Virus record (IMG/VR): IMGVR_UViG_3300029288_000011
Coordinates: 2,669-66,668 of that record
Source: a virus
Taxonomy: Duplodnaviria > Caudoviricetes
Direction: 5' to 3' (one strand)
DNA: 64,000 bases
The notes beneath the pieces were generated by a model that worked only from the letters and a program-made list of their open reading frames with translations, searched no databases and was not told the origin of the DNA. Position numbers and translations under genes: made by a program. Shown here one piece after another: positions 6,795-64,000 of the stretch. Each line of letters starts with the position of its first letter. Position 1 is the first letter of the stretch.

Positions 6795-7064
6795 ATGTAC
6801 ATACCCACCCCACTAGATGAATACGTTGTCACCCCAATGCCAGACGGGACGTATAGCGTGTGGAATGAACCCAAGGACACACGTTATGCCGTCTGGCAGG
6901 CTGGCAACGGTAGGTACAGATGTACATGTGATCATTGGACTTATCGTTGCAAACTTTGGGGCGCGGATTGCAAACATATCACACTCGTCAAGGCGAGTAA
7001 CAAAAGAGAGGAGACTAACTATGAAAAAGCCCACCAAAACAGACAAAGGTATCAAAGCCTTTAA
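6795..7064 (+). CDS. SWIM-type zinc-finger protein
   Basis: YRCTCDHW...DCKHI (CxC...CxH). Confidence 0.7.
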   Translation: MYIPTPLDEYVVTPMPDGTYSVWNEPKDTRYAVWQAGNGRYRCTCDHWTYRCKLWGADCKHITLVKASNKREETNYEKAHQNRQRYQSL

Positions 7065-7446
7065 AGTTGTTGGCCCTCAGGGGTATGGCACGAATGTTAC
7101 GGGTGCTATTTTTGGTGTTCGTGGTATCACTCCAACCATTCGAGAGTTTCTCGACAAGTATCCAAACTATTTCCCAAAATACAAACGTGGTGCTATTATT
7201 AACCAAGCGCCGAAGAGTGCTGGAGTGTTTTGTTTCAGCACCATTGTGGATGCTCGTAAGTTTATACACAATAACTTCCAACTTCGTGAGCAGGACGTCA
7301 AAATACTCCAGGTAACTGGTTGGGGACGTAGGAAGATCACTGAAATAATACCTGGTTGTATGGAACTTAGTACGCTGTTTCGAAAGTGTGACCCATTTGA
7401 CTTAACGCGGGCACCCCCAAGGAACCATCGGCTTCAGACGCATTAA
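7021..7446 (+). CDS. Hypothetical protein
   Basis: Start moved to ATG 7021 after the repeated RBS motif. Confidence 0.6.
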   Translation: MKKPTKTDKGIKAFKVVGPQGYGTNVTGAIFGVRGITPTIREFLDKYPNYFPKYKRGAIINQAPKSAGVFCFSTIVDARKFIHNNFQLREQDVKILQVTGWGRRKITEIIPGCMELSTLFRKCDPFDLTRAPPRNHRLQTH

Positions 7447-18377: not shown

Positions 18378-19100
18378 ATGATACCTACTATGATGAATGA
18401 CCTAACCAATCCCCCACTTGACAATGTTGCAGTCTACCTAAGTGGTGGTATAGACTCGTCCGTGGTGCTTTATCACGTGACTAAAAAATGCAAAAACGTT
18501 CGCACGTATACGGCAGTTTTTGGTGTATCTAATGACGAGTCTGCCAAAGCTCAACGCGTGGCTAACTATTTTGGCACAACACACACTGAGGTATTTATAT
18601 TCAAGTCTGATATACTAGACTCTCTCCCATATGTAATGCGTCTATTCGACAGACCTCGATACAACATCTGGCCGTTTTTTCTGGCTAGACGTGCCTTCTA
18701 TGATGAGGTTAAAACAGCCTACATAGGTGAGGGGTCAGATGAGATATTTGGTTATCCCGATCGTGGTTACCTCGAAGGCTGGGCCGGGCAGTTGATTTAT
18801 GTACGTCCAACCTATGATATAGTCAACTCCCACTTCGGCATCACTCTCAAAGCCCCGTTCACTGAGTTACACCACAAGCTCATAGCAGACTACGGTTCCC
18901 AGTCCGCACCGTTAGCATACTTCGATCCACCCAACAAATCCTACCTTCGTTCAGCATATAAACGTCTCTTGCCAGACTGGATACTCAACACTCCCACAAC
19001 TGCACCAGCATTTACTAACTACACCGAACTTGGGATCACTAAACATGAATTCCAAATCGCAGCTACACGTGCATGGTTGGGGGTGCATGATGTTCACTAA
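18378..19100 (+). CDS. Asparagine-synthase-like ATP pyrophosphatase domain (no glutaminase domain)
   Basis: PP-loop YLSGGIDSS; GEGSDEIFGY; THTEV. Confidence 0.8.
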   Translation: MIPTMMNDLTNPPLDNVAVYLSGGIDSSVVLYHVTKKCKNVRTYTAVFGVSNDESAKAQRVANYFGTTHTEVFIFKSDILDSLPYVMRLFDRPRYNIWPFFLARRAFYDEVKTAYIGEGSDEIFGYPDRGYLEGWAGQLIYVRPTYDIVNSHFGITLKAPFTELHHKLIADYGSQSAPLAYFDPPNKSYLRSAYKRLLPDWILNTPTTAPAFTNYTELGITKHEFQIAATRAWLGVHDVH

Positions 19101-19839
19101 ACTAACCATCGAACTCACCAACATCTGCAACTTATCATGTGATCCTTGTCCACGTCACCACCTAAAAATGAACTTTGGCTACATGAACGAGCAGCTATTC
19201 TATAAGTTGCTAGACCAATGTCCCCCAGGTACCACTATCCTACCGTTCTGGCGTGGTGAATCGCTCCTACACCCACAGGCTATTGAGCTGCTCTATTACG
19301 CAGTTTCCCGTAAATTAGATGTTGTGTTAGCAACCAACGGTTCCCGAATGGTTGAACTACACCAACAAATCGGCCTCATAAAAAAGCTAAAAGCGATCAA
19401 CGTGAGCTTACATAACATCGACTCATATTCAGCCTACCTATGGCTCCAAGAACTCAAACACGCTACAAACTCACCAATCGACATACAACTATCCTATGTC
19501 GAAGGTGAACACACCGACGTTCCAGAGGAGTTATTTAACCACTTAAACCTTCGCCGTTATAAACAACACTCCTTCAACGGTGTATGGGGATGCACCGATG
19601 CTGAACCAGTATTATACCAAGACTGGTGTCAGCGTTTAGACACTGACCTAGTAATCACGTGGGATGGTAAAGTCTCACGTTGCTGCTATGTGTGGCAACC
19701 AATAGAAGGTTTAGATGCTAACACACAAACTCTGGAATCCATACAATATCATCCAAATTATAGTCGTATCATTACTAACTATCCCGACCGCATTTGCTCT
19801 GCGTGTGACCAATGGCGAGGCGGGGGTAGAACTCTCTAA
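19087..19839 (+). CDS. Radical SAM / SPASM protein
   Basis: CNLSCDPC; ITWDGKVSRCC; CSAC. Confidence 0.85.
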   Translation: MMFTKLTIELTNICNLSCDPCPRHHLKMNFGYMNEQLFYKLLDQCPPGTTILPFWRGESLLHPQAIELLYYAVSRKLDVVLATNGSRMVELHQQIGLIKKLKAINVSLHNIDSYSAYLWLQELKHATNSPIDIQLSYVEGEHTDVPEELFNHLNLRRYKQHSFNGVWGCTDAEPVLYQDWCQRLDTDLVITWDGKVSRCCYVWQPIEGLDANTQTLESIQYHPNYSRIITNYPDRICSACDQWRGGGRTL

Positions 19840-19854
19840 CCCAGGAGTCAAACT

Positions 19855-20670
19855 ATGGACATTTTAATCCTTGGTGGCGATGGCATGTTGGGGCATCAGT
19901 TACTTAAATCCCTAAGTCATAAACACTACGTAAAAGCAACCATTCACGGGCCGGAGATGTTTGGTAGAATCAACACATTTCCATATGTTGACGTCACAAA
20001 CACAGACCACTTAACAGAAATACTCTCTGAATTTCACCCTAAAGTTGTTATCAATGCAGTGGGTTTCGTTAAACAACGGTTTCATGACTACGTCAAAAAC
20101 ATCGAAGTAAACGCTTTGTTTCCACACAAACTAAACAACCTCTGTAAGTCTATTCATGCGCGACTTATACACATCAGCACGGACTGTGTGTTTAGTGGTA
20201 ACAATAGCAGCTACACAGAACAACATACACCTGATCCTGTTGACATCTATGGTATGACAAAACTACTTGGTGAAATTCACTCATCTTATGGTTGTCTTAC
20301 TCTACGCACGTCATTCATAGGACGTGAACTTAAGAATAAGTTAGGTTTACTTGAGTGGTTTCTAGGTCAAACCGGGACGAGTGTAAACGGCTACATAAAC
20401 GCTGTTTTCAGTGGCCTAACCACCATCGAATTTGGGCGTGTTATAGAGATGATACTAGACTCCCACGAACTACATGGTCTACTTAACGTATCTGGTTATC
20501 CCATTAATAAGTATGATCTCTTACTTAAACTCCGTGCTAAATTCAACCTAAACATAGACATCAAACCATGTATGGAACCAGTGATTAATAGGTCGTTAGA
20601 TTCATCCAAGTTTATGAAACGCTTCAACTACCAGCCCCCAACCTGGGATTCGTTGATTGAGGAACTATGA
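19855..20670 (+). CDS. dTDP-4-dehydrorhamnose reductase (RmlD/RfbD) family SDR
   Basis: ILGGDGMLG, HISTDCVFSG, YGMTK. Confidence 0.9.
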   Translation: MDILILGGDGMLGHQLLKSLSHKHYVKATIHGPEMFGRINTFPYVDVTNTDHLTEILSEFHPKVVINAVGFVKQRFHDYVKNIEVNALFPHKLNNLCKSIHARLIHISTDCVFSGNNSSYTEQHTPDPVDIYGMTKLLGEIHSSYGCLTLRTSFIGRELKNKLGLLEWFLGQTGTSVNGYINAVFSGLTTIEFGRVIEMILDSHELHGLLNVSGYPINKYDLLLKLRAKFNLNIDIKPCMEPVINRSLDSSKFMKRFNYQPPTWDSLIEEL

Positions 20671-21617
20671 AAATCCTTCACTACCATCACAACGGCGTGG
20701 GTGTGGTGCTTAGCAACGAAATGAACACCAGACCTAACATCACATCAAAGGTGTTCACCACCGCCAGACATCCTTTTGGGTTTAAGGCTGACTACGTGCT
20801 ACCACCCAATATACCAATTCTAGGTTCACAAAACCTTTCATATTGGATATTGTTTAGTACACTACACAAACGTTATGATATATTACATAGTCATGATGGA
20901 ATTCCCCTACCACAACGTGTATTACGCAAATGGTCTGGCCGGGTTGTGCAGCACTACCACAATCCATTATTTACTGACTTCTACCCACACACTCCCATAC
21001 CATCGTTCGTATCAACGCCAGCCATGACATTAACTATCCCAAATTCTGTGTGGATGCCACTACCTATAGACCCACTTAAATTCCATCCAGGTGTTAGACT
21101 TTATAACCCATACAATCCAGTTATAGGATTCTCATACAATATAAGCGCAGACAAGAATAAACTAAAATACATTCCACTTAATGAACTTATGCAGTTCTCA
21201 CGGGACTGTAAACAAGTCATCATGAAAGGTTTATCTGATTCTATTCATCATACCAAAATGCCAGCCTACTACCAATCAATAGACATTTATGTGGATCGCT
21301 TGGGACTGGACTCCTATGGTTGGCAAGCTATCGAAGCGGCGGCGTGTGGGTGCGTGGTAGTTACTCAAGCCAAGAACTCTCCAGAAGATTGTCCATTTAG
21401 TTATGCAACTCCAGAGACACTTTCTAACGTGCTAGAATCCATCATAACTCTACCAGTTAAGATGTTCATAAACATGAAACATCAATCCATTGAATACGCC
21501 AATAAATATCACAACGTCTCAACACTCGTTGACAGATACCTACAATATTACTCTAACCTAGGAGACCTAAATGCTTTTAAAAACTGCATGGAGCACACTA
21601 GCATTACTGCTATATAA
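20667..21617 (+). CDS. GT-B fold glycosyltransferase (GT4-like)
   Basis: YQSIDIYVDRLGLDSYGWQAIEAAACGCVVV. Confidence 0.8.
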   Translation: MKILHYHHNGVGVVLSNEMNTRPNITSKVFTTARHPFGFKADYVLPPNIPILGSQNLSYWILFSTLHKRYDILHSHDGIPLPQRVLRKWSGRVVQHYHNPLFTDFYPHTPIPSFVSTPAMTLTIPNSVWMPLPIDPLKFHPGVRLYNPYNPVIGFSYNISADKNKLKYIPLNELMQFSRDCKQVIMKGLSDSIHHTKMPAYYQSIDIYVDRLGLDSYGWQAIEAAACGCVVVTQAKNSPEDCPFSYATPETLSNVLESIITLPVKMFINMKHQSIEYANKYHNVSTLVDRYLQYYSNLGDLNAFKNCMEHTSITAI

Positions 21618-22599
21618 GCGTCAGAGTCAATGGGCCGTGCCAACATCATTAGGTGTATGTCTGACAGATAGATGCAACATCAAATGCACCTACTGTATGC
21701 GAGAAACGTTTAAACCACCAAGCGGTGAGTTAGACCTAGACGATATTCAAGTTATGTTACGTAATGCACCTACTGTTACAGGCGTCTGTATTATGGGTTT
21801 GTGTGAACCTTATTGTAATCCTAATACGAGTCGTATCATCAAATGGTTAAAAGATGAAGGTCACTACAGTATATCATTCACTACAAATTGTACCATCCCA
21901 TTCACACCCGTTAAATTAGATGCACTTCGACGCGTTGATGACATGGCCGTGAGTATAGACTCAGCTGATCCAGTGGTGTTTCGTGAATTAAGAGGTACTA
22001 GCTTAGACACAGTCATGACCCACCTAACCGATATTATTCGTTATAAACGTGTGCTCAAGTTAACCGCCACTGACTCACCACCCATTCACATCAATGCTGT
22101 AATAACTCAACGTAACTGGTCTGGCATACCAGACCTAATAAAAATGTTCGAACCCTATGCTAACGACCTAACCTACCTAATGCTAGACCCATGCACACGA
22201 CCTGATTACTCAAAGGCAGACGTATTTACATCAACTGAGAAACCGTCTAACTTCGACGACTTTAAACACCTTGCCAAACTCTCACCACTTAAAGTCATAG
22301 GTTTCGACTACATGTTCCAGCCATCTAGTGAGTGGTCTACCTGCTCAATGTCGTGGTTAGGCCCATTCGTACAACCCAACGGTGACGTTTATCCTTGTTA
22401 TGGTTATAGAACTGTCGTTGGTAACATCTATCGTGAATCCCTACTCCACGCCTGGAACTCCCCACTCATACGAGAGTTTCGACGTTCCTTACAAACTCCC
22501 TATCCACCGTTAGTTCAATGTCGTTTCTGTAACTTCGCCCGTCCTAAATGGCAAGTAGGTGGTGCATACAATAAACTCCACGAGGATCAAGACAAATGA
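21571..22599 (+). CDS. Radical SAM / SPASM protein
   Basis: CNIKCTYC; VQPNGDVYPC; CRFC. Confidence 0.85.
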   Translation: MLLKTAWSTLALLLYKRQSQWAVPTSLGVCLTDRCNIKCTYCMRETFKPPSGELDLDDIQVMLRNAPTVTGVCIMGLCEPYCNPNTSRIIKWLKDEGHYSISFTTNCTIPFTPVKLDALRRVDDMAVSIDSADPVVFRELRGTSLDTVMTHLTDIIRYKRVLKLTATDSPPIHINAVITQRNWSGIPDLIKMFEPYANDLTYLMLDPCTRPDYSKADVFTSTEKPSNFDDFKHLAKLSPLKVIGFDYMFQPSSEWSTCSMSWLGPFVQPNGDVYPCYGYRTVVGNIYRESLLHAWNSPLIREFRRSLQTPYPPLVQCRFCNFARPKWQVGGAYNKLHEDQDK

Positions 22600-23297
22600 C
22601 AGACTTTGATTATCAGTGGAAATACTTATCCAACTCACCCTATTTAGAACACAACTCAGATAGGGTGAAAGAACTCCTAGACCTAACAATGCTACCGCCT
22701 GAGTGGTTTAATGGTAAGTATTGCCTAGACGTTGGCTGTGGTTCGGGACGCTACACATATGCTATGCAACAACTAGGTGCAAAGGTTATATCAATAGACA
22801 ACAGCATCTATGCACTCCAGCTAACAAGTCAAATAAACAAACACGTCTTTCTACATGACATCACCAAAGCACCGTTTTTTATACGTGGTTGTGCATTAAC
22901 ATTCTGCTATGGTGTGATCCACCACACACCCAACCCTAGAAAAGCCTTCTCAAACCTAGCAAAGGGTGTACCTAGTGGAGGTTATTTATTTGTTATGGTA
23001 TACCGTGACTCTCCCGTTCAAAAACGGTACGAAGGTTTCAGAAAACTATTTAAATCCCTACCTGCTGTAATGAGGTTACCTTTTGTTTATATGATTACTC
23101 TAGTGTTCCGTTATAATTACATCCCACCATTTTATCATCCAGTTCATACAGTTCATGGTTGGTGGGACGCATTAAGTCCGACATACAACTTCACATTCAC
23201 CGAGGACGAAATAGTAACGTGGTTTAGAGAAGAAGGGTTTAGTAACTTATACACTTCTACCCTACCTAACATATGTATGACAGGACTAAAACTATGA
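22596..23297 (+). CDS. Class I SAM-dependent methyltransferase
   Basis: CLDVGCGSGRY; YGVIHHTP. Confidence 0.85.
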   Translation: MTDFDYQWKYLSNSPYLEHNSDRVKELLDLTMLPPEWFNGKYCLDVGCGSGRYTYAMQQLGAKVISIDNSIYALQLTSQINKHVFLHDITKAPFFIRGCALTFCYGVIHHTPNPRKAFSNLAKGVPSGGYLFVMVYRDSPVQKRYEGFRKLFKSLPAVMRLPFVYMITLVFRYNYIPPFYHPVHTVHGWWDALSPTYNFTFTEDEIVTWFREEGFSNLYTSTLPNICMTGLKL

Positions 23298-23938
23298 AAA
23301 TCCTCTTTGTCCCACACGATGCAGGTAACTTTGCTCCGTTGGTAGCTAAGTGTCTACGTGACCAAGGTTACGATGCTAGGTGTATAATTTTTTCACAATC
23401 GTATCTAAGTTATAAGGTTCAACCACCAGACAAAGTAATCGGCGGTCGTGGTGTGTGGTCACTATTAATATTAGAACTAAAACGCTGGCTCGTGTTGTAT
23501 GAGGCACTTAGTTATGATGTGATTGTTTTTACCTTTGGTAGTACCATCCTCCCGAACCCGGCGTTTATAGGTTGGGGATTGAGTAGTAAAATTTCACTAA
23601 AAATGCGTATGTTTTATTCATGTATAGTCTATCCATTCAGTTATCTAATGTTAGATGTTTGGTTGTTACATAAACTACACAAACGCATAGGTGTATTGTT
23701 CCAGGGCGGCGACGCGCGTAGAGGTGACATACTACGTACGCGTGGGTATCCAGACATAGACGAAGAACCCAAGGGTTATTATATTAACTTCATTGACAGA
23801 TTAAAGTCCCGGCGTGCCAAACTTTGGGACAAATATGCTGATGTTATTTGGTACCACAACCCCGATCTCTGGTGGGGACTACCTAAACGCTCAACCTTTA
23901 TGCCGTACCCAATAGAGACTAACCATGAAACGTTCTGA
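23294..23938 (+). CDS. Glycosyltransferase N-terminal Rossmann half
   Basis: MKILFVP, YDVIVF, LFQGGDAR; lacks the C-terminal donor-binding motif. Confidence 0.6.
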   Translation: MKILFVPHDAGNFAPLVAKCLRDQGYDARCIIFSQSYLSYKVQPPDKVIGGRGVWSLLILELKRWLVLYEALSYDVIVFTFGSTILPNPAFIGWGLSSKISLKMRMFYSCIVYPFSYLMLDVWLLHKLHKRIGVLFQGGDARRGDILRTRGYPDIDEEPKGYYINFIDRLKSRRAKLWDKYADVIWYHNPDLWWGLPKRSTFMPYPIETNHETF

Positions 23939-24281
23939 TATACGTAGACTCTACGTCCATAACCGCATGATCCTAATGAAAGGATTTAATGAGGTTGGTA
24001 TAGTTATAAGTATCTGGAACACGTCTATGCTACTGTTGCTTACGTTGTCTAACTTATTTGGACGGTCTATTAAAGTTGTGTGGATGGTGGTTATAGCTAT
24101 ACCTACTATTGTAGTTGTCTTTTATTTAGTAGGTCTCCTACTCTACAAACGCGGCTTCATGAACGCGGAGTCAGAATGGATAGCAAGTGTAAGTCCTCCA
24201 CATATGGACATAATCAAACGTCTAGACCACATAGAAAAGGAGCTACAGGATGTCAAGACTAACATTCGGACACATAGTTAA
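23925..24281 (+). CDS. Two-TM membrane protein with C-terminal coiled coil
   Basis: Hydrophobic segments, then IIKRLDHIEKELQ. Confidence 0.65.
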   Translation: MKRSDIRRLYVHNRMILMKGFNEVGIVISIWNTSMLLLLTLSNLFGRSIKVVWMVVIAIPTIVVVFYLVGLLLYKRGFMNAESEWIASVSPPHMDIIKRLDHIEKELQDVKTNIRTHS

Positions 24282-24843
24282 CCACCGTGAGCCAAAAGGT
24301 AGTCGTTTCGTATTAGACGCTGTTCATAAAGCACGTATGTCAGGTGCAGACTTCGGGTTTATATTTGCTGAACGTCTCTCATATCAGGAGGCTATGAAGT
24401 TATACCCCCAAATTGATGTGTTGCTTGAGCAGTTTGTTATAGGCTGGTATGGTCTACAAGCATGTGAGTTTGCACTCATGGGTAAGCCGGTTGTAGTCTA
24501 TCTACGTGAGGCTGACGGCCCGCCGCTGGTACCTAGCCAACTCTGGCAGGACATACCATTTATCAACGCCACTCCAGATCAAATCCCTGGTGTGATTATA
24601 AACATCACCAAGATGTCAACTCTTGCTCTAACTGAATTAGGAAAACGCGGCATAGCCTTCGTTAAGAAATATCATTCAAACACTGTAGTAACCCAACAAG
24701 TCATGAATGAGTTATTAACCCTACCAAATCACTCGGAATTAAACGAATCTCACGGAAAACTTTCCCCTAAGGAGGTGCATTGTGATGAAAAAGGTAATCC
24801 TATTAGCGTGGCTGCTTCAAATAGTGATCTACCCAAACTATAA
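24250..24843 (+). CDS. Glycosyltransferase C-terminal Rossmann half
   Basis: IDVLLEQFVIGWYGLQACEFALMGKPVVVY. Confidence 0.7.
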   Translation: MSRLTFGHIVNHREPKGSRFVLDAVHKARMSGADFGFIFAERLSYQEAMKLYPQIDVLLEQFVIGWYGLQACEFALMGKPVVVYLREADGPPLVPSQLWQDIPFINATPDQIPGVIINITKMSTLALTELGKRGIAFVKKYHSNTVVTQQVMNELLTLPNHSELNESHGKLSPKEVHCDEKGNPISVAASNSDLPKL

Positions 24844-25033
24844 AGGCATCCAAGGTGAGGTTGACTACTCTCGTCCAGCCATCGTGATTGACAAGGACGA
24901 AGTCTACCAAACCATACCAGGTACAACAGAACGTGACTACACTAAACCTAGCTACACTATAGAAGACAAACGTCCAGATACACGTAGACATCATCAACGT
25001 TACATAATCGACATGGAGGACCCGTTGGAATGA
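24782..25033 (+). CDS. Hypothetical protein with hydrophobic N-terminus
   Basis: MKKVILLAWLLQIVIY; RBS AAGGAGG. Confidence 0.55.
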   Translation: MMKKVILLAWLLQIVIYPNYKGIQGEVDYSRPAIVIDKDEVYQTIPGTTERDYTKPSYTIEDKRPDTRRHHQRYIIDMEDPLE

Positions 25034-26331
25034 ACATATTCACTATCAACCTATCAGACATAACTATCCCACCAACTCGTCAACGTACTGACAAGGACGA
25101 CAAATACATTGACCAGTTATCCGAATCCATCCGTATGATAGGCCAAATCAACCCTATTATACTTGACGAAACCAACACCCTCATAGCAGGTTGGTGTCGT
25201 ATCAAGGCGTTTGAGTTGCTAGGACGCACCGAAATCTATGCACGTCGTTGGGAGGACTTGGACCAATATGAAAAAGAACTTATCGAGTTCGAAGAAAACG
25301 TTAGACGTAAAAATCTATCCTATAACGAACAGTTGCTCGCTGAACTTGCACTCCATGAACGATTCCAGCAGTATCACGGCGTACAGAAGTCCCCATTTTA
25401 CGGCCACGTTTCTAAAGGACGACCCAAATGGCGAGTGGAAGACATGGCTAACTTTATGGGATTCTCAATAGGTAAAATGAGTGAGCGTCTCAAGCTCGCA
25501 CAAGAAATCCGCCGCAACCCTGAGATGGGTGACTTCAAGACCGAATCCCAAGCACGTCACGCTATGGAACGCAAACAAGCACAGGCTATACGTACGGTGT
25601 TAGCTGCTGTTAAGGTGAGTGAACAGAAGGAAACCACACCATCCAACGAACCCAAACCATTATTTGAAACCTATCACCACGGTGACATCACCCTCATTAA
25701 CGCAGACGCCAAACTCGTCATCCCTACCCTACCAGACGACTCTATAAGTTGCCTCATCACCGACCCGCCTTGGAACGTTCTCTTTGATGAGTCATTTGGT
25801 ACAGACACCAAAATAGGACTGGAGTTAACTCATGAGACTCTCAGACTTCTATACCCAAAATTGCAGTCAGGATCATTATGTGTCATGTATTGTGCAACAA
25901 GACACCTTATCACAGGAAAAATTTATGAACTCGTTCAGTCTTGTGGTTATGCTATCTACCCCACTATACATATATGGTACAAACCACACTCTGCAGGAAG
26001 TTCCATACCTTATCGTGAACTCAAGAACGACTACGAACCCGCGCTCTTATTCTCAAAAGGACTCGGAAGAGATTTTCATAGTCCTATGTGGGCAGTTATT
26101 AGTGGTCTAGTAGAAGGCAAACGTTATCATACTGCACAGAAATGTACGGACGTGCTGAAGCAACTCATTCAGAATTTCACGGTTGAAAATGAGTTAGTGA
26201 TTGACCCGTTTATGGGTTCCGGACAGACGATGTTAGCCTGTCGTGCGTTGAAGCGTCGCGGATTGGGTATAGAAAAAGAACCTGACCATTATCATACTGC
26301 TATTTATCTAATGGAGGAACCTCATGTCTGA
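25030..26331 (+). CDS. ParB/Srx-like domain fused to N6A/N4C DNA methyltransferase
   Basis: LSESIRMIGQINPI...LIAGWCR; TDPPW (motif IV); IDPFMGSG (motif I); beta-class motif order. Confidence 0.88.
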   Translation: MNIFTINLSDITIPPTRQRTDKDDKYIDQLSESIRMIGQINPIILDETNTLIAGWCRIKAFELLGRTEIYARRWEDLDQYEKELIEFEENVRRKNLSYNEQLLAELALHERFQQYHGVQKSPFYGHVSKGRPKWRVEDMANFMGFSIGKMSERLKLAQEIRRNPEMGDFKTESQARHAMERKQAQAIRTVLAAVKVSEQKETTPSNEPKPLFETYHHGDITLINADAKLVIPTLPDDSISCLITDPPWNVLFDESFGTDTKIGLELTHETLRLLYPKLQSGSLCVMYCATRHLITGKIYELVQSCGYAIYPTIHIWYKPHSAGSSIPYRELKNDYEPALLFSKGLGRDFHSPMWAVISGLVEGKRYHTAQKCTDVLKQLIQNFTVENELVIDPFMGSGQTMLACRALKRRGLGIEKEPDHYHTAIYLMEEPHV

Positions 26332-26702: not shown

Positions 26703-28962
26703 ACGCCTAGCTATTGTTGGTGAAGCACTAGGCGCAGACGAGGAGGAACAAGGTGATTACTTCGTTGGCAAGGCTGGGTTCTTACTTGATAAACTCCTTC
26801 GTGAGTGTGGTCTCATCCGTGATGCTATTCATATTACTAATGTTCTTAAAATACGTCCTCCGGATAACAAAGTACCCAGACTAGGTGAGTTAGGTCTAAC
26901 CATAGATGACTTCGTCCCATATCTAAAGGAAGAACTCTCACTTGTCAAACCTAACATTATCCTTGCATTAGGTGCCCCGGCCATGCAGGTTCTAACTGGC
27001 AAAGACGGTATAACCAAATGGCGCGGCTCGACGGTTCCTTGCACTTTAATCCCAGGGAACATACCAGTTGTGATCACTCTTCACCCGTCGTATATACAGC
27101 GTGGTCAGTGGCACCTATATCCATATGTTAGGCATGACTTTGAAACCTTTGCAGATATGGGATTTGGGTTGCATAAACAAACCCAACCATTTGAAATGTT
27201 GATTGAGCCTACACTAACTCAAATTATGGACTACTTAAACGAAATATACGAGACGTCCACTGAAACGTCCATAGACATAGAGACCGTTAACAAGACCCAC
27301 ATCACTTGTGTGGGGTTTACTAAGAATGAGAACTCGGCAATCTGCATACCTTTTCGTTCGAAGGGTCTACGTAACCACTGGGCCGAGCATGAGCAACTAC
27401 TTATACTTGAAGCGATGCGTCGTGTCTATCAGAAACCGGGCCTTGTCAAGATTGGTCAGAACTTCCTAGACTACGACGCCCATTACCTCTATCCGTTGTT
27501 AGGCTTCCCACGTGAACCCCTATTCGACACCCTCTATGCACATCAGTTAATTCACGCCGACGCGCGTCATGACCTAGGGTTCATCATAAGTGTCTACACC
27601 GACATGCCCTACCATAAAGACGACGCCAAAGACTGGGAATCTAAAAAACTCCCACACGATCAAGCCTTGTGGGAATACAACTGTCGTGATACAATAGGCA
27701 CACACCGTGCTGCACTTAAACTAAGGAGCGACCTACATGAATTGGGACTCTACGGTTTTCTCACCGGCTACATCATGCCATTCAAACGCGCCCTATTTGA
27801 GATGGAGTGGAGAGGAATATACGTTGATCAAGAACTGCGTGGGAGAATGGCAAAAGACATTGAAGATAACCTTTTACCAGACGCATTGTGGTGCATCGAA
27901 GAACTCACAGGTAAAGCTATTAATCCAAACTCATCCAAGCAGGTTGGGGAGTACCTCAACGACGTCCTCCACATACCCGTTCCAAGGACAGACAAAGGCA
28001 ACTACACAGTCGATGAGGATAAGTTAGAAGAACTCTTCGCGAGGTTTCCAAAGCATCGTCGTATCATGGAGATGTTTATATGCACCCGTAAGATGAAGGC
28101 TAAGGACTTGGGTACCTATCTCACTGCACCCTTATCAAGTGACGGTCGCCTACGCACTAGCTTTGGCATAGCTAAAACCGGTAGACTCACCTCTGGTACT
28201 AACCACCGTGGCGAGGGCACGAACCTCCAGAACCAGCCCAAGCGATTGCGCGTGGTTTATAAAGCCGACCCCGGTCGTAAGTTACTATGTCCTGACCTCG
28301 TAGGTGCTGAAGCCTTCGTAACTGTCTGGCAATCCGGGGCAAAGAAACTCAAAGCTGAGATGTTGAAAGGTAAAAAAATCCATGCTATCGTCGCCAACTG
28401 GATCACCGGCAAACCCATTAGCGAACTCCCACCCGAAACCTACCGCAACATAAAAGCCTGTGTGCATGGTAGCAACTATAAAATGGGCGTGAACAAATTC
28501 GCCAAGACCATAGGCTCAACCGTTGAAGAAGCCAAGCGTGTGCGTGAACAATACTTTGCTGTGTTTCCTGAGTTGGCTGGGTATCATGCATGGGTAGAGA
28601 ATGAAGTTGTCACCAAACGTAAACTCATCACGCCTTATGGACGGGTACGTATATTCACAGGCGACTTGAAAAAAGACGATATGTATTCTGCTTATTCACA
28701 AATTCCACAATCCACTATTGCGGACACAATAAATACAGGGATACTCGGTCTTTGGTTGGTGAAGCCAGACGATATATACTTACTGCTACAAGTACATGAT
28801 GAAGTTGTAATAGAGCTACTTCCAGACAGAATTGAGTGGTTCAAACTGTACATAGAAGCACATCTATCCAAACTACGCGAACTATGGATTGGAGATGATT
28901 ATTTAGTTATTCCAGTGGACATAGGTAAGGCTAAGGACAGGTGGTACGGAGGTGAAAAGTAA
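26623..28962 (+). CDS. polA: Family A DNA polymerase with N-terminal uracil-DNA-glycosylase domain and 3'-5' exonuclease
   Basis: AIVGEALG..EE...FVGKAG, ITNV, TLHPSY (UDG); IDIET (ExoI); TGRLTS, QNQP, DLVGAE, KACVHGSNY, QVHDE. Confidence 0.92.
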   Translation: MELTTQLDLQSKCSKLKLVLPKSLTHKRLAIVGEALGADEEEQGDYFVGKAGFLLDKLLRECGLIRDAIHITNVLKIRPPDNKVPRLGELGLTIDDFVPYLKEELSLVKPNIILALGAPAMQVLTGKDGITKWRGSTVPCTLIPGNIPVVITLHPSYIQRGQWHLYPYVRHDFETFADMGFGLHKQTQPFEMLIEPTLTQIMDYLNEIYETSTETSIDIETVNKTHITCVGFTKNENSAICIPFRSKGLRNHWAEHEQLLILEAMRRVYQKPGLVKIGQNFLDYDAHYLYPLLGFPREPLFDTLYAHQLIHADARHDLGFIISVYTDMPYHKDDAKDWESKKLPHDQALWEYNCRDTIGTHRAALKLRSDLHELGLYGFLTGYIMPFKRALFEMEWRGIYVDQELRGRMAKDIEDNLLPDALWCIEELTGKAINPNSSKQVGEYLNDVLHIPVPRTDKGNYTVDEDKLEELFARFPKHRRIMEMFICTRKMKAKDLGTYLTAPLSSDGRLRTSFGIAKTGRLTSGTNHRGEGTNLQNQPKRLRVVYKADPGRKLLCPDLVGAEAFVTVWQSGAKKLKAEMLKGKKIHAIVANWITGKPISELPPETYRNIKACVHGSNYKMGVNKFAKTIGSTVEEAKRVREQYFAVFPELAGYHAWVENEVVTKRKLITPYGRVRIFTGDLKKDDMYSAYSQIPQSTIADTINTGILGLWLVKPDDIYLLLQVHDEVVIELLPDRIEWFKLYIEAHLSKLRELWIGDDYLVIPVDIGKAKDRWYGGEK

Positions 28963-28963
28963 C

Positions 28964-29482
28964 ATGAGTGGGTATGCAGAAAACTTACTTGGACGCAGAT
29001 TTGGTAAGTTAGTGGTGTTAGAAAAAATCAACACACACAAAGTTACTTCTAGGAGTGCGTGGTGGAAGTGTCAATGTGATTGTGGAAATATAACAGAAGT
29101 CGCTGCAAGACACTTAAAAGCTAAACTCAAACCTAAAACAGACTGCGGTTGTGTTAAGGGATACTCAAAAAGTGGCACGTATATATCGTATAGAAGTATG
29201 AGAAATAGATGTCTGAATAAAAACTCACCAGACTATCCTAAATACGGAGGTCGTGGGATAACTGTCTGTGGACGGTGGTTAGACAGCTTTGAAAACTTTT
29301 CGAAAGATATGGGTCCACGTCCAATAGGAACGACGTTAGATAGGAAAGATAAGTTAGGGAACTATGAACCATCAAATTGTAAATGGTCAACATACCACGA
29401 GCAAACATTAAACAGGAGTACGTCACTAATTTCAAAAGAAGAACTGGATCGCTTAAATAAGACACTTGGTTTTGTCAAGTAG
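28964..29482 (+). mobile_element. Free-standing HNH homing endonuclease
   Basis: GRRFGKLVV, WKCQCDCG, YGGRGITVC, LDRKD..GNYEPSNCKW; AT-richer than its neighbours. Confidence 0.85.
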
Positions 29483-31406: not shown

Positions 31407-31934
31407 GTGAACAAAATACCAGACTTAATAGGACAACGATTCGGCAAATTGGTTGTAATAAGTTTTCATGGTTTAAATAAACAGAATAAATCTATGTGGG
31501 AATGTATCTGTGATTGTGGTAAACATAAAGTTATACGTGGTTCTTTACTACGTTATGGAACATCACAGAGTTGCGGTTGTTTACGTACTAAAAGTGTGAC
31601 CAAACATGGATTATGGGGTAGTCCCACCTATTCTAGTTGGCATGGTATGAAACAACGTTGCGCTAATCCAAACAGAGACGTTTATAAGGACTATGGTGGT
31701 AGAGGAATTACTATGTGTGAGCGTTGGAACAAGTTTGAAAAATTTTTAGAGGATATGGGAGAGTGTCCTAAAGGATTAACCCTAGATAGAATAGACAACA
31801 ACGGTAATTATGAACCCGGTAATTGTCGATGGGTGTCGATGTTAGAACAAACATACAACAGGAGAAAGAATAACACATTAACCATTGATGAAACTAAGAA
31901 GCTCTACCATAATTTTGGTATAAAAGGTTACTAG
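31407..31934 (+). mobile_element. Free-standing HNH homing endonuclease, paralogue of 28964-29482
   Basis: GQRFGKLVV, WECICDCG, YGGRGITMCERW, LDRIDNNGNYEPGNCRW. Confidence 0.88.
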
Positions 31935-61512: not shown

Positions 61513-61634
61513 TCTCTCCACTCATCGTAATTAACCCACTTGATCCAGATATGACCGCATTTGGGGCATTGAGTAGGCCCAGGCTTGTCCTCATACTCAT
61601 AGCTACATTTCAAACATAGGAACCTAGCCTTCAC
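61488..61634 (-). CDS. 48-aa zinc-ribbon protein
   Basis: CLKC...CPKCG; GTGA overlap; below track cutoff. Confidence 0.55.
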   Translation of the reverse strand: MKARFLCLKCSYEYEDKPGPTQCPKCGHIWIKWVNYDEWREWQDQQNI

Positions 61635-62035
61635 TTACACACCTGTGTAGCGTTCCCGAATTCAGGGGCATCGGGAGTAACAGTCACCCCGCAGTTGATC
61701 GTAACGGACTTTGGTGTGCTCCACCCGTAGGTCAGAGCCTTCGTCCCGTCGCTCCGTGTCACCTCGACAACAGCCCCAAGGCGATACGAAAACGTACCGT
61801 CTGCAAGGCCGGTAATAGTCAAGTTGGTGCATCCCGGGAGACATTGTTGAGCCAAGAGTGAACCGTTCTGCTCAACCACATAATACTTGAACACAGGACT
61901 CATCGAAGCAGGGAATACGCTCGACCTCGGCGTGGGGTCGTCAAGGGATTTCGTCACCTGAATCGTGACATCATGGGCCTGTGCGAAGGTTGCGAAGGCC
62001 AGTACCAGAATCACCGTTGCGAATAGCTTTTTCAT
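61631..62035 (-). CDS. Exported fibronectin-III-like beta-sandwich protein
   Basis: Signal peptide MKKLFATVILVLAFATFAQA; LTITGLADGTFSYRL. Confidence 0.65.
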   Translation of the reverse strand: MKKLFATVILVLAFATFAQAHDVTIQVTKSLDDPTPRSSVFPASMSPVFKYYVVEQNGSLLAQQCLPGCTNLTITGLADGTFSYRLGAVVEVTRSDGTKALTYGWSTPKSVTINCGVTVTPDAPEFGNATQVCK

Positions 62036-63609: not shown

Positions 63610-63619
63610 GAGCTTGTCC

Positions 63620-64000
63620 TTAGTATGAATAAGTGAAATAAGCCTTACCAAAAAACACATTAGCTATAATAGTTCCGGCCTCGGCCCAATCTGGAAATGT
63701 GCCGTATGTGCATGGATAAAGAACCCCCACTCTATTACCACCACTTGCTTCCTGAAATCTATGCGTATGTCCAGAGGTAGCTTGGGTGCTGAAGCATACC
63801 CAATACTGACCGCCCGCTTCAACTGTCGGTTTTGTAACAAAGGTGAATGTTACATCTGTTGCGCTGGTCGTTATGTCAAGCTCAGTGGATGACCCATTTG
63901 TGAGTAGTGTTGCTGGTTCATTAACATCCGCATCATGTGTATATATAGATAAATACGTCTTTCTATTTACCGATGAACTCAATGTAACCGTAACAGAGTC
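63620..64000 (-). CDS. Beta-rich hypothetical protein (partial, begins beyond the window end)
   Basis: Frame stays open from 63982 to 64000 (DSVTVT...). Confidence 0.6.
   Translation of the reverse strand, partial: DSVTVTLSSSVNRKTYLSIYTHDADVNEPATLLTNGSSTELDITTSATDVTFTFVTKPTVEAGGQYWVCFSTQATSGHTHRFQEASGGNRVGVLYPCTYGTFPDWAEAGTIIANVFFGKAYFTYSY

What the first reader, a model, noticed from the sequence alone, without database searches (positions are those of the whole stretch)
18378..24843. Phage-encoded sugar synthesis and modification cluster upstream of the DNA methyltransferase and polymerase
Contiguous, mostly overlapping genes: Asn-synthase-like amide ligase, radical SAM/SPASM, RmlD-like reductase, GT4-like glycosyltransferase, second radical SAM/SPASM, SAM methyltransferase and a split glycosyltransferase. 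Together they could make and transfer an amidated, methylated deoxysugar. No hydroxymethylase, TET/JBP or deazaguanine genes are visible, so a known DNA-glycosylation handle is missing. The target may be DNA through new chemistry, virion proteins, or host LPS/EPS.
Basis: partly seen in the sequence, partly recalled or inferred. Interest (0 to 1): 0.85.

Follow-up and report, generated by a model that had tools for sequence, protein, structure and literature searches.

The report
Phage sugar-building and sugar-transfer gene cassette
A complete uncultured 66.5-kb phage carries an intact nine-gene cassette that tailors sugars (two radical enzymes, a reductase, a methylase, an amide-forming enzyme) and transfers them (two glycosyltransferases, one in two pieces); it travels between unrelated phages with a membrane "O-antigen ligase"-type gene, so its target is more likely a surface glycan or secreted protein than DNA.

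Summary
Window 18378-24843 holds nine co-directional, mostly overlapping, intact genes: a short Asn-synthase-type PP-loop ligase, a BtrN-like radical SAM, an RmlD-like reductase, a GT4-like glycosyltransferase, a second radical SAM, a SAM methyltransferase, and a GT4-like glycosyltransferase in two halves around a small membrane-protein gene. The contig is a complete phage (127-bp terminal overlap) binned into a bacterial MAG.

New findings:
- RmlD-like/GT/rSAM2(/MTase) is a cell-type module. In Bathyarchaeia/Thorarchaeota MAGs and about 70 metagenome contigs, rSAM2 homologues usually sit beside a CapD/FnlA-type dehydratase and an RmlD-like reductase. The phage lacks the dehydratase.
- A complete, otherwise unrelated 68.8-kb phage shares exactly six genes with this one: ligase, rSAM1, MTase, both GT halves (fused there) and the Wzy_C gene at 45695-47374.
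- A third phage has the same frame with a different sugar-tailoring centre, and its GT is split at the same linker by an HNH endonuclease gene.
- The phage has no thymidylate-synthase-like, TGT/DpdA, TET/JBP or integrase gene.

Best reading (about 0.55): a modular glycoconjugate pathway feeding a Wzy_C-dependent step outside the cytoplasm. Virion glycosylation (0.2) and DNA modification (0.08) remain open. This scan has reported phage glycan islands on other DNA before. Verdict: new variant of a known kind.

The parts
18378..19100 (+). Short (240 aa) Asn-synthase-type PP-loop ATP-dependent amide ligase with no glutaminase domain ('AsnS-short')
   Evidence: PF00733 at E 1.6e-26, with SGGIDS and GEGSDEIFGYPDRGY motifs. 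Homologues of the same length occur in other viral contigs at 34-45% identity. It belongs to a large, mostly viral family. The closest PDB relatives by sequence are CarA, AsnB and beta-lactam synthetase.
19090..19839 (+). rSAM1: BtrN-like radical SAM enzyme with one auxiliary-cluster (twitch/SPASM) domain. The ORF opens at 19030; the database gene call of 249 aa starts at 19090.
   Evidence: CxxxCxxC motif. Radical_SAM scores 28.0 bits, just under the 29.5 cut-off; SPASM scores 26.2 bits, over the 21.5 cut-off. Four conserved C-terminal Cys. A family profile hits BtrN at E 1.7e-16. Homologues at 34-41% identity in viral contigs L080/L081/L082/L094 lie next to GFO/IDH/MocA oxidoreductase and hexapeptide acetyltransferase genes.
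19855..20670 (+). RmlD-like SDR, inferred to be an NDP-4-keto-6-deoxy-sugar reductase
   Evidence: PF04321 at 94 bits. TIGR01214 scores 88 bits, below its equivalog cut-off. GGDGMLG and YGMTK motifs are present. RmlD-like genes flank rSAM2 homologues in most cellular loci.
20667..21617 (+). GT316: GT-B fold, GT4-like glycosyltransferase
   Evidence: Homologues at 31-37% identity lie in Bathyarchaeia/Thorarchaeota-type glycan loci next to rSAM2. AlphaFold model pLDDT 83.6. The top Foldseek hits are ManT, BshA, PimA and MshA.
21571..22599 (+). rSAM2: radical SAM/SPASM-type enzyme of an uncharacterised nucleotide-sugar pathway
   Evidence: PF04055 at 48.5 bits and PF13186 at 46.3 bits. It belongs to a tight family at 44-80% identity. 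In cells it sits next to Polysacc_synt_2 and RmlD-like genes. The phage copy lies in a separate 9-member clade with SH-aLRT 100.
22596..23297 (+). Class I SAM-dependent methyltransferase (MT233)
   Evidence: Methyltransf_23/11/25 hits and the LDVGCGSG motif. It is 43-44% identical to genes placed directly before the GT in viral contigs L081 and L084.
23273..23938 (+). N-terminal half of a two-piece GT4-like glycosyltransferase
   Evidence: Aligns to residues 1-207 of unsplit ~380-aa proteins (P0121 at 53% identity). Other ~210-aa split forms end at the same linker. It is 63.5% identical to L081 and 45% identical to the fused L084 gene.
23925..24281 (+). TM118: small protein with two predicted membrane helices. 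Its gene overlaps both GT halves.
   Evidence: Two hydrophobic segments. It is 36% identical (E 1e-18) to L081:1232-1567, which in that phage lies just upstream of the ligase gene. No family match was found.
24250..24843 (+). C-terminal half of the two-piece GT4-like glycosyltransferase
   Evidence: Aligns to residues 219-372 of P0121 (46% identity, E 2e-46) and to P0123. It is a distant paralogue of the GT316 C-domain. The model of the fused homologue has pLDDT 90.5 and a GT-B fold, with ManT, PglA and BshA as top hits.
45695..47374 (-). Wzy_C (O-antigen ligase / O-oligosaccharyltransferase / polymerase family) polytopic membrane protein in the late virion block. It is the genetically linked partner of the cassette.
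   Evidence: PF04932 at 53 bits, over the 31.7 cut-off. At least 9 hydrophobic segments. It is one of only six genes shared with the unrelated complete phage G003 (25% identity over 551 aa, E 6e-41).
25030..26331 (+). Context: ParB-N fused N6/N4 DNA methyltransferase, immediately downstream of the cassette
   Evidence: PF01555 at E 1.9e-21; PF02195 weak, below cut-off (20.4 vs 26.3 bits). A syntenic homologue flanks the sugar slot in phage G004.
26608..28962 (+). Context: family A DNA polymerase
   Evidence: phrog_17 at E 2e-79. Syntenic with G004 PolA at 28% identity.

Best explanation
The cassette is a modular, phage-borne glycoconjugate pathway that acts during lytic infection.

Cytoplasmic steps:
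- Soluble enzymes re-tailor host nucleotide sugars.
- The RmlD-like reductase and rSAM2 are the phage copy of a cell-type pair. In cells this pair works right after a CapD/FnlA-type UDP-HexNAc 4,6-dehydratase, giving a 6-deoxy-(N-acetyl)hexose that receives one further radical-SAM step (epimerisation, oxidation or deoxygenation; inferred).
- MT233 methylates.
- The BtrN-like rSAM1 oxidises a sugar hydroxyl (inferred from its nearest solved relative).
- The short Asn-synthase-type ligase adenylates a carboxylate, most simply a uronic acid, and converts it to an amide (inferred).
- Two GT4-type transferases add these sugars to an acceptor at the inner face of the membrane, most likely a polyprenyl-PP-linked oligosaccharide. 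These are GT316 and the two-piece enzyme, whose halves reassemble non-covalently. TM118 may act as the membrane tether.

Extracytoplasmic step:
- After flipping by host machinery, the phage Wzy_C-family protein, encoded in the late block, polymerises or transfers the glycan on the outer face.
- The acceptor is either a host envelope glycan (receptor masking, exclusion of other phages, avoidance of re-adsorption to debris) or the phage's own Sec-exported Ser/Thr-rich proteins.

Shown: gene identities, intactness, the split-GT architecture, the cellular glycan-cluster context of the homologues, co-transfer with Wzy_C, and the absence of DNA-handle enzymes. Inferred: every chemical step, the lipid carrier and the acceptor.
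For: 1. Domain and motif content is intact.
2. rSAM2 homologues lie beside Polysacc_synt_2 in 52 of 77 fetched loci and beside RmlD-like genes in 50 of 77. In about ten loci they also lie beside GT316, MTase, a 432-aa Asn-synthase-like gene, GT2 and GT4 homologues. These are ordinary cell-glycan clusters of Bathyarchaeia/Thorarchaeota MAGs.
3. Phage G003 (68,760 bp, CheckV 100%) shares only six genes with this phage at E<1e-4: the ligase, rSAM1, MT233, GT-N, GT-C and Wzy_C. No structural or replication gene is shared.
4. The viral contig L081 has the same frame, ligase-rSAM1 ... MT233-GT, with a different centre: GFO/IDH/MocA oxidoreductase, hexapeptide acetyltransferase and a methyltransferase. 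L082, L094 and G004 add a DegT aminotransferase or an SDR. This is the conserved-flank, swapped-centre layout typical of surface-polysaccharide loci.
5. Both GTs model as GT4-like GT-B enzymes. Their nearest structures are lipid, oligosaccharide or small-molecule transferases (ManT, PimA, PglA, BshA). T4 alpha-glucosyltransferase appears only at rank 49.
6. Contig C4 has no thymidylate-synthase-like, TGT/DpdA or TET/JBP gene, and the early genes scanned with Pfam show no nucleotide-modifying enzyme.
7. Wzy_C scores above the Pfam cut-off and has at least 9 hydrophobic segments. Three late proteins carry Sec-type signal peptides and are 20-23% Ser+Thr.
8. The cassette has lower GC (41-45% against 48% upstream) and the opposite GC skew to the upstream same-strand genes. 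This fits mosaic acquisition.
Against: - No initiating phosphoglycosyltransferase, flippase or chain-length regulator is encoded, so the lipid-linked route depends entirely on an unknown host.
- The Wzy_C link rests on two complete genomes. G004, a DTR-complete distant relative with a ligase-centred sugar slot, has no Wzy_C.
- In this phage, G003 and G004, the cassette sits inside the replication/recombination gene block next to a ParB-DNA methyltransferase and PolA. That is where DNA-modification genes usually sit.
- The 4,6-dehydratase that always accompanies rSAM2 in cells is missing from the phage, and the bin has no strong copy either.
- The bin lacks LpxC, so a classical WaaL-type reaction is unlikely if that bin is the host.
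- GT-B enzymes include DNA glucosyltransferases, so the fold alone does not exclude DNA.
Confidence: 0.55

Rival explanations
1. Cytoplasmic virion glycosylation. The soluble GT4-type transferases put the tailored sugars directly on capsid, tail or fibre proteins before or during assembly, as in glycosylated mycobacteriophages. Wzy_C would then be unrelated, or would serve a second function.
For: All cassette enzymes except TM118 lack membrane segments, and no export genes are present. Relatives G004, G005 and G002 carry further GT genes elsewhere in their genomes. G004 lacks Wzy_C yet keeps the sugar slot. Several earlier follow-ups in this scan reached this reading for other phage glycan islands (unchecked leads only).
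Against: The cassette is in the early/replication block rather than next to structural genes. Its cellular homologues lie in cell-glycan clusters. The only non-cassette gene that travels with it between unrelated phages is a periplasm-facing Wzy_C protein.
Confidence: 0.2
2. DNA hypermodification. The sugar is transferred to phage DNA by chemistry that does not need 5-hydroxymethyl-pyrimidine or 7-deazaguanine, and it protects the genome from host nucleases.
For: The cassette lies between early genes and ParB-DNA methyltransferase/PolA. In G003 the module follows RecT and DnaB, and in G004 the sugar slot lies between ParB-MTase and PolA. GT-B is also the fold of the T4 DNA glucosyltransferases (rank 49). 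An earlier follow-up proposed DNA as the target of a ParB-flanked amino-sugar cluster in another phage (unchecked).
Against: No thymidylate-synthase-like hydroxymethylase, TGT/DpdA or TET/JBP gene is on the contig. The homologues of four cassette genes sit in cellular polysaccharide clusters. The module co-travels with a membrane Wzy_C protein. The nearest GT structures are not DNA enzymes.
Confidence: 0.08
3. Small-molecule biosynthesis. The enzymes build an aminoglycoside- or pseudo-oligosaccharide-like metabolite rather than a polymer or conjugate.
For: The nearest solved relative of rSAM1 is BtrN of butirosin biosynthesis. Related phage cassettes combine it with a DegT aminotransferase, an oxidoreductase, an acetyltransferase, methyltransferases and GT4 enzymes, a set that resembles aminocyclitol pathways.
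Against: No cyclitol synthase or resistance/export gene was seen. rSAM2, GT316 and RmlD homologues lie in cell-surface glycan clusters. The link to Wzy_C points elsewhere. I know of no precedent in phages.
Confidence: 0.05
4. Non-functional cargo. The genes are decaying fragments captured from a host, and the 'split' GT is a pseudogene.
For: The GT is in two pieces. The ligase is half the length of the cellular 432-aa form. The cell-type dehydratase partner is missing.
Against: Every ORF is open with its catalytic motifs. The short ligase is a large, conserved viral family. Both GT halves are 62-63% identical to those of another phage and 45-50% identical to a fused form. Split forms that end at the same linker recur at 39-60% identity in several lineages. 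The genes are translationally coupled by short overlaps.
Confidence: 0.02

Closest known systems
Wzx/Wzy-type surface-polysaccharide and O-glycosylation loci, and phage serotype-conversion modules (for example P. aeruginosa phage D3 Wzy-beta, PMC4815439)
   Same: Soluble nucleotide-sugar tailoring enzymes plus GT4-type transferases plus a polytopic Wzy_C-family protein. Conserved flanking genes with an exchangeable sugar-specific centre. The module is carried by a phage.
   Different: There is no integrase, so this is not a lysogenic conversion module. No initiating transferase, flippase or Wzz is encoded. Wzy_C lies in the late virion block, 21 kb from the cassette. Two radical SAM enzymes and a stand-alone Asn-synthase-type ligase are not standard parts of such loci.
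UDP-HexNAc 6-deoxy pathways: FnlA/CapE/WbjB (Polysacc_synt_2 dehydratase), then FnlB/CapF/WbjC or the WbvR reductase, then a 2-epimerase (from my own knowledge of these pathways)
   Same: In cells, rSAM2 sits directly beside a Polysacc_synt_2 dehydratase and an RmlD-like reductase. The phage keeps the reductase and rSAM2.
   Different: A radical SAM/SPASM-type enzyme takes the place where a third enzyme (an epimerase) would be expected, and its reaction is unknown. The phage lacks the dehydratase. The RmlD-like protein scores far below the dTDP-rhamnose equivalog cut-off.
BtrN, the twitch-domain radical SAM 2-deoxy-scyllo-inosamine dehydrogenase (PDB 4M7S/4M7T)
   Same: rSAM1 has the same size (~250 aa), the CxxxCxxC motif and a single four-Cys auxiliary-cluster domain. 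BtrN is its best PDB sequence match, at E 1.7e-16.
   Different: The similarity is at profile level only. The genomic partners are nucleotide-sugar enzymes, not aminocyclitol genes. The substrate is untested.
Wbp/Wlb pathway to UDP-2,3-diacetamido-2,3-dideoxy-uronic acids, and AsnB-type uronamide or amidino-forming amidotransferases (WbpS, WbpG; from my own knowledge)
   Same: Related phage cassettes (L081, L082, L094, G004) pair the short ligase with WbpB-like (GFO/IDH/MocA), WbpE-like (DegT) and WbpD-like (hexapeptide) genes.
   Different: This phage has replaced those three genes with RmlD/GT316/rSAM2. The ligase has no glutaminase domain.
Genes-in-pieces created by homing endonucleases (Aeromonas phage Aeh1 NrdA split by mobE; PMC3045599), and the naturally two-subunit GT-B enzyme Alg13/Alg14 (from my own knowledge)
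   Same: In the relative L081, an HNH endonuclease gene sits exactly at the interdomain linker of the GT. Both halves stay conserved, which implies non-covalent reassembly of the two Rossmann-like domains.
   Different: In this window the endonuclease position is occupied by a conserved two-helix membrane-protein gene. No intein or intron signature is present. Activity of the split enzyme is untested.
Mycobacteriophage virion glycosylation
   Same: A phage-encoded GT plus methyltransferase set with no export genes.
   Different: Those loci lie beside structural genes and lack radical SAM enzymes, the ligase and a Wzy_C partner.

Membership tests
Radical SAM superfamily | CxxxCxxC motif binding the SAM-cleaving [4Fe-4S] cluster | tested here: met
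   rSAM1 has CNLSCDPC and rSAM2 has CNIKCTYC. PF04055 scores 48.5 bits for rSAM2, over the cut-off, and 28.0 bits for rSAM1, just under the 29.5 cut-off. The Cys are conserved in alignments A1 and A2.
SPASM/twitch subfamily | C-terminal Cys-rich domain binding auxiliary Fe-S clusters (7-8 Cys for full SPASM, about 4 for twitch) | tested here: met
   PF13186 scores 26.2 and 46.3 bits, both over the 21.5 cut-off. Only four C-terminal Cys are conserved in each family (rSAM1 C180/C198/C236/C239; rSAM2 C258/C276/C317/C320). One auxiliary cluster is therefore the more likely state (inference).
BtrN-type carbohydrate dehydrogenase | Radical oxidation of a secondary alcohol of an amino-cyclitol or sugar to a ketone | not testable with these tools
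   Only sequence likeness is available (E 1.7e-16).
Asparagine synthetase B (glutamine-hydrolysing) | N-terminal Ntn glutaminase domain plus C-terminal PP-loop synthetase domain | tested here: not met
   Only the synthetase part is present, covering profile positions 20-137 of 354. TIGR01536 scores 77.6 bits against a cut-off of 267. The PP-loop SGGIDS motif is present. It works like an AsnB/beta-lactam-synthetase-type adenylating amide ligase but is not AsnB.
QueC (7-cyano-7-deazaguanine synthase) | QueC profile above cut-off, plus the deazaguanine pathway partners FolE/QueD/QueE and a DpdA/TGT | tested here: not met
   PF06508 scores 23 bits against 94 bits for Asn_synthase. TIGR00364 scores 20 bits against a cut-off of 150. 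No TGT is on C4.
RmlD dTDP-4-dehydrorhamnose reductase | Equivalog-level match, and an SDR Rossmann fold with the YxxxK motif | tested here: inconclusive
   PF04321 scores 94 bits, over its cut-off. TIGR01214 scores 88.5 bits, below its 224 cut-off. YGMTK and GGDGMLG are present. It is an RmlD-like reductase of unknown nucleotide-sugar specificity.
GT4 (retaining GT-B glycosyltransferases) | Two Rossmann-like domains and a C-terminal donor-binding motif with a conserved Glu (EX7E-type) | tested here: met
   Models with pLDDT 84 and 90 give GT4 enzymes as top hits, at E 1e-11 to 1e-12. The conserved Glu is present (GT316 E223; A7 E296). The first acidic residue of EX7E is Asp in GT316 and absent in the split GT. 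Pfam Glycos_transf_1 is below its cut-off.
Wzy_C (O-antigen ligase / PglL / Wzy family) | Pfam PF04932 above cut-off in a polytopic membrane protein | tested here: met
   53.2 bits against a cut-off of 31.7, and at least 9 hydrophobic segments. Which sub-activity it has (ligase, O-OTase or polymerase) could not be tested.
T4-type or J-base-type DNA glycosylation | A hydroxymethyl-pyrimidine handle made by a thymidylate-synthase-like hydroxymethylase or a TET/JBP dioxygenase | tested here: not met
   PF00303 and PF12851 give no match on C4.
Temperate-phage serotype conversion | A lysogenic phage (integrase) expressing glycan-modifying genes from the prophage | tested here: not met
   No PF00589 match on C4. 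The contig is a free, terminally redundant genome. Serine recombinases were not searched.

The most novel reading that the evidence does not exclude
A non-temperate phage brings its own glycoconjugate line: radical-SAM-made sugars, GT4 transferases and a late-expressed Wzy_C-family transferase. It uses this line outside the cytoplasm, either to O-glycosylate its own Sec-exported Ser/Thr-rich fibre or depolymerase-like proteins, or to rewrite the envelope glycan of a host without LPS during lytic growth. The module moves as a unit between unrelated phages, with an exchangeable sugar-specific centre. Its rSAM2 step would be an undescribed radical reaction on a UDP-6-deoxy-HexNAc-type sugar, shared with Bathyarchaeia.
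Probability: 0.3. Interest if true: 0.8.

Novelty: new variant of a known kind. Interest (0 to 1): 0.55.

Why it matters
Phage-encoded glycan pathways are known mainly from temperate serotype converters and from glycosylated actinophage virions. This case shows three further things.
- A lytic-type phage carries a portable module that includes a Wzy_C-family membrane transferase, which points to phage-directed glycosylation beyond the cytoplasmic membrane.
- The locus has the conserved-flank, swapped-centre design of O-antigen loci.
- The glycosyltransferase is kept functional-looking in two pieces, with a homing endonuclease at the same break in a relative.

It also exposes a conserved and uncharacterised triad in Bathyarchaeia/Thorarchaeota-type glycan clusters: dehydratase, RmlD-like reductase and radical SAM. 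That makes a concrete biochemical target. If the acceptor is a receptor glycan or a secreted phage protein, the finding bears on host range, superinfection exclusion and on engineering glycans.

Tried and rejected
- **Close relatives:** megablast of the region against GenBank phages found nothing. Single-protein scans of IMG/VR with rSAM2 and PolA found no close relative. The rSAM2 profile found nothing in IMG/VR.
- The contigs of the nearest rSAM2 relatives (P0002-P0009, 54-80% identity) and of rSAM1 relatives on 50-66-kb contigs could therefore not be fetched.
- **Intron or ribozyme between the GT halves:** Rfam at permissive threshold found nothing in 17-27 kb.
- **Intein or trans-splicing:** rejected. 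The halves abut the fused homologue with no extra sequence.
- **Longer homologues of the GT N-half:** the word-indexed search found none. The exhaustive HMMER search found many.
- **RiPP reading (Asn-synthase-like lasso cyclase plus SPASM maturases):** rejected. The partners are consistently nucleotide-sugar enzymes and GTs, and no precursor was seen.
- **Archaeal virus:** considered after the Bathyarchaeia hits and rejected. The bin has no ribosomal protein L15e, and the phage has a DPBB lytic transglycosylase.
- **Host assignment:** there are no spacer-like matches and no cassette homologues on the other contigs. The tetranucleotide correlation with the main contig is only 0.43. The host remains unknown.
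- **Operon boundaries:** promoter and terminator scans gave nothing above shuffles.
- **Literature:** searches for the gene combination found no description.

Full report
**Setting**

The window is bases 2669-66668 of contig C4 (66,668 bp) of a 1.26-Mb, 10-contig bin.
- C4 ends in an exact 127-bp terminal overlap, so it is a complete circular or terminally redundant genome.
- Its tetranucleotide profile correlates only 0.43 with the main contig.
- It encodes a large terminase, portal, major head protein, internal virion protein and a family A DNA polymerase, so it is a tailed phage.
- The bin is bacterial (no ribosomal protein L15e) and lacks LpxC.
- The phage carries a DPBB/RlpA-type lytic transglycosylase.
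- The other contigs hold no spacer-like match and no cassette homologue. The host is therefore unknown, and the bin membership is unproven.
- No tyrosine integrase lies on C4.

**Observation**

Nine + strand ORFs run from 18378 to 24843. They are separated by overlaps of 4-47 nt or, in one case, a 15-nt gap. No + strand terminator-like site lies inside the run.
- a 240-aa Asn-synthase-type PP-loop protein (SGGIDS motif; no glutaminase domain);
- rSAM1, with CNLSCDPC and a SPASM hit (the database gene call starts at 19090);
- an RmlD-like SDR with YGMTK;
- a 316-aa protein with only sub-threshold GT1 hits;
- rSAM2, with CNIKCTYC and a SPASM hit;
- a class I methyltransferase;
- three ORFs without family hits.

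AlphaFold models of the 316-aa protein (pLDDT 84) and of a fused homologue of the last GT (pLDDT 90) are GT-B folds. Their best PDB matches are GT4 enzymes: ManT, BshA, PimA, MshA and PglA.

**The split glycosyltransferase**

An exhaustive HMMER search shows that ORF 23273-23938 matches residues 1 to about 207 of many ~380-aa proteins. It also matches several ~210-aa proteins that stop at the same point. ORF 24250-24843 matches residues 219-372 of the same full-length proteins, at 43-46% identity. Nothing is missing and nothing is added at the break, which lies in the interdomain linker. Rfam finds no intron there.

Three related phage versions of this gene exist:
- It is fused in IMG/VR contig G003 (L084:9998-11146, 382 aa).
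- In contig L081 it is split by a 165-aa HNH endonuclease gene (phrog_374, E 1e-65).
- In this window it is split by a 118-aa gene for a protein with two predicted membrane helices.

That small protein is itself conserved. It is 36% identical (E 1e-18) to an ORF that in L081 lies upstream of the ligase. The two halves are 63% and 62% identical between this window and L081.

This is a stable genes-in-pieces enzyme, comparable to the endonuclease-split NrdA of phage Aeh1 (PMC3045599), and not a pseudogene. The window itself holds two paralogous HNH genes, at 28952-29482 and 31407-31934.

**Two modules of different ancestry**

*Module B: RmlD-like reductase, GT316 and rSAM2.*
- rSAM2 belongs to a tight family of 44-80% identity.
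- All genome records found for this family are Bathyarchaeia or Thorarchaeota MAGs. That scan used only two peptide patterns, so bacterial carriers are not excluded.
- In those loci and in 70 metagenome loci, tblastn finds a Polysacc_synt_2 (CapD/FnlA/PseB-type) dehydratase in 52 of 77 loci and an RmlD-like reductase in 50 of 77. In the loci of 7 kb or more these usually lie directly beside the rSAM2 homologue.
- About ten loci also hold GT316 homologues (31-37% identity), the methyltransferase, a 432-aa Asn-synthase-like protein, a GT2 and a GT4.
- These are ordinary cell-glycan clusters. The dehydratase-reductase pair is the start of the known UDP-6-deoxy-HexNAc routes (my knowledge of FnlA/FnlB and WbvB/WbvR). 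What the radical SAM adds is not known.
- The phage lacks the dehydratase, and the bin has no strong copy.
- In a quick maximum-likelihood tree, the phage rSAM2 falls in a separate nine-member clade (SH-aLRT 100), outside the clades that hold the archaeal sequences.

*Module A: ligase, rSAM1, MT233, the GT and TM118.*
- Module A is phage-borne.
- L081 has ligase-rSAM1 ... MT233-GT in the same order. Its centre is different: a GFO/IDH/MocA oxidoreductase, a hexapeptide acetyltransferase and a methyltransferase.
- L082 and L094 combine rSAM1 and the ligase with the oxidoreductase and acetyltransferase, and L082 also with a DegT aminotransferase. This is a WbpB/E/D-like set.
- The short ligase is a large, mostly viral family.
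- The best solved relative of the rSAM1 family is BtrN, a twitch-domain sugar/cyclitol dehydrogenase (E 1.7e-16).
- Both radical SAM families conserve only four C-terminal cysteines.

The cassette has lower GC and the opposite GC skew to the upstream same-strand genes, as expected for mosaic DNA.

**Link to Wzy_C**

I confirmed it: PF04932 scores 53 bits against a cut-off of 31.7, and the protein has at least 9 hydrophobic segments.

G003 is a 68,760-bp phage rated 100% complete with 51% GC. I fetched it whole and compared it with all 171 window ORFs. Only six gave matches at E<1e-4: the ligase, rSAM1, MT233, GT-N, GT-C and Wzy_C (25% identity over 551 aa, E 6e-41). Nothing else appeared even at E<0.05 beyond noise-level hits.

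In both phages the Wzy_C gene lies among late genes. In G003 it directly follows an ORF of at least 1585 aa.

Two otherwise unrelated phages that share just these genes is strong guilt-by-association that Wzy_C works with the cassette. The caveat is G004, a DTR-complete 48.6-kb distant relative with a syntenic replication block. It carries an SDR-DegT-ligase-acetyltransferase slot between ParB-MTase and PolA and has a GT2, but it has no Wzy_C.

**Target**

Against DNA:
- Six-frame searches of C4 find no thymidylate-synthase-like, TGT/DpdA or TET/JBP gene.
- The early genes scanned show none either.
- The GTs resemble lipid and oligosaccharide GT4 enzymes.
- Half of the cassette has cell-glycan homologues.

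For DNA:
- Only the position beside replication genes, which recurs in G003 and G004.

For an extracytoplasmic glycoconjugate:
- Wzy_C.
- Three late proteins with Sec-type signal peptides and 20-23% Ser+Thr, at 61631-62035, 62044-63660 and 3-2072.

Cytoplasmic virion glycosylation by the soluble GTs cannot be excluded.

**Verdict**

- The most likely function (about 0.55) is a modular phage glycoconjugate pathway that ends in a Wzy_C-dependent step.
- The chemistry of rSAM1, rSAM2 and the ligase, and the acceptor, are inferred only.
- This scan has already reported phage glycan-tailoring islands on other DNA.
- What is new here is the Wzy_C partnership, the swap-centre architecture, the endonuclease-associated split GT, and the link to an uncharacterised archaeal-type radical SAM sugar triad.
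This prevented a look at the nearest relatives' contigs.

Noticed in passing
whole window (G000:C4): The contig is a complete phage genome with an exact 127-bp terminal overlap. Its tetranucleotide correlation with the main contig of the bin is only 0.43. The bin is a 1.26-Mb bacterial genome without LpxC. Contigs C7 and C8 are also compositional outliers.
   Followed up: partly
window 28952-29482 and 31407-31934: These are two paralogous free-standing HNH homing-endonuclease genes (phrog_374, E 5e-50 and 2e-72), one directly behind PolA and one behind the DUF3987 primase/helicase gene. A homologue splits the glycosyltransferase gene in viral contig L081 (8101-8598).
   Followed up: yes
window 61631-62035, 62044-63660, 3-2072 (all - strand): Three late proteins carry Sec-type signal peptides (for example MKKLFATVILVLAFATFAQA) and are 20-23% Ser+Thr. 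One of them has a right-handed beta-helix domain. They are possible acceptors for a Wzy_C/PglL-type transferase.
   Followed up: partly
L003:5200-9736, L004:9959-13641 and about 50 further loci (L005-L079): A conserved, apparently uncharacterised triad occurs in Bathyarchaeia/Thorarchaeota-type glycan clusters: a Polysacc_synt_2 dehydratase, an RmlD-like reductase and a radical SAM/SPASM enzyme. An extra SDR epimerase is often present too.
   Followed up: partly
L092 / G004 (IMG/VR 3300035698_027457), about 35.2-43.5 kb: This distant, DTR-complete relative has the same replication-block synteny. It carries a different sugar slot (SDR, DegT aminotransferase, short ligase, hexapeptide acetyltransferase) between ParB-MTase and PolA. 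The ligase is the constant element of a variable slot.
   Followed up: partly
L004:6474-7010 and 7049-7396: In the Thorarchaeota locus, a GT4-like N-domain ORF (178 aa) and a GT C-domain ORF (115 aa) lie side by side. This may be another split glycosyltransferase or a frameshift.
   Followed up: no
G000:C7:21284-21709 and C7:15749-16120: The 22-kb outlier contig C7 holds a partial thymidylate-synthase-like ORF (60 bits, profile positions 94-212) and a distant radical SAM hit. It may be a fragment of another mobile element or phage with nucleotide-modifying genes.
   Followed up: no
window about 18000: The GC skew changes sign from +0.20 to -0.15 exactly where the cassette starts, although the coding strand does not change. 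GC content drops from 48% to 41-45%.
   Followed up: no
window 45695-47374, C-terminal ~170 residues: The Wzy_C protein has a soluble C-terminal extension with a helical-repeat (TPR-like) look by eye, and this extension is conserved in the G003 homologue. The bin's own Wzy_C ORF (C1:404123-404590) is 742 aa long.
   Followed up: no
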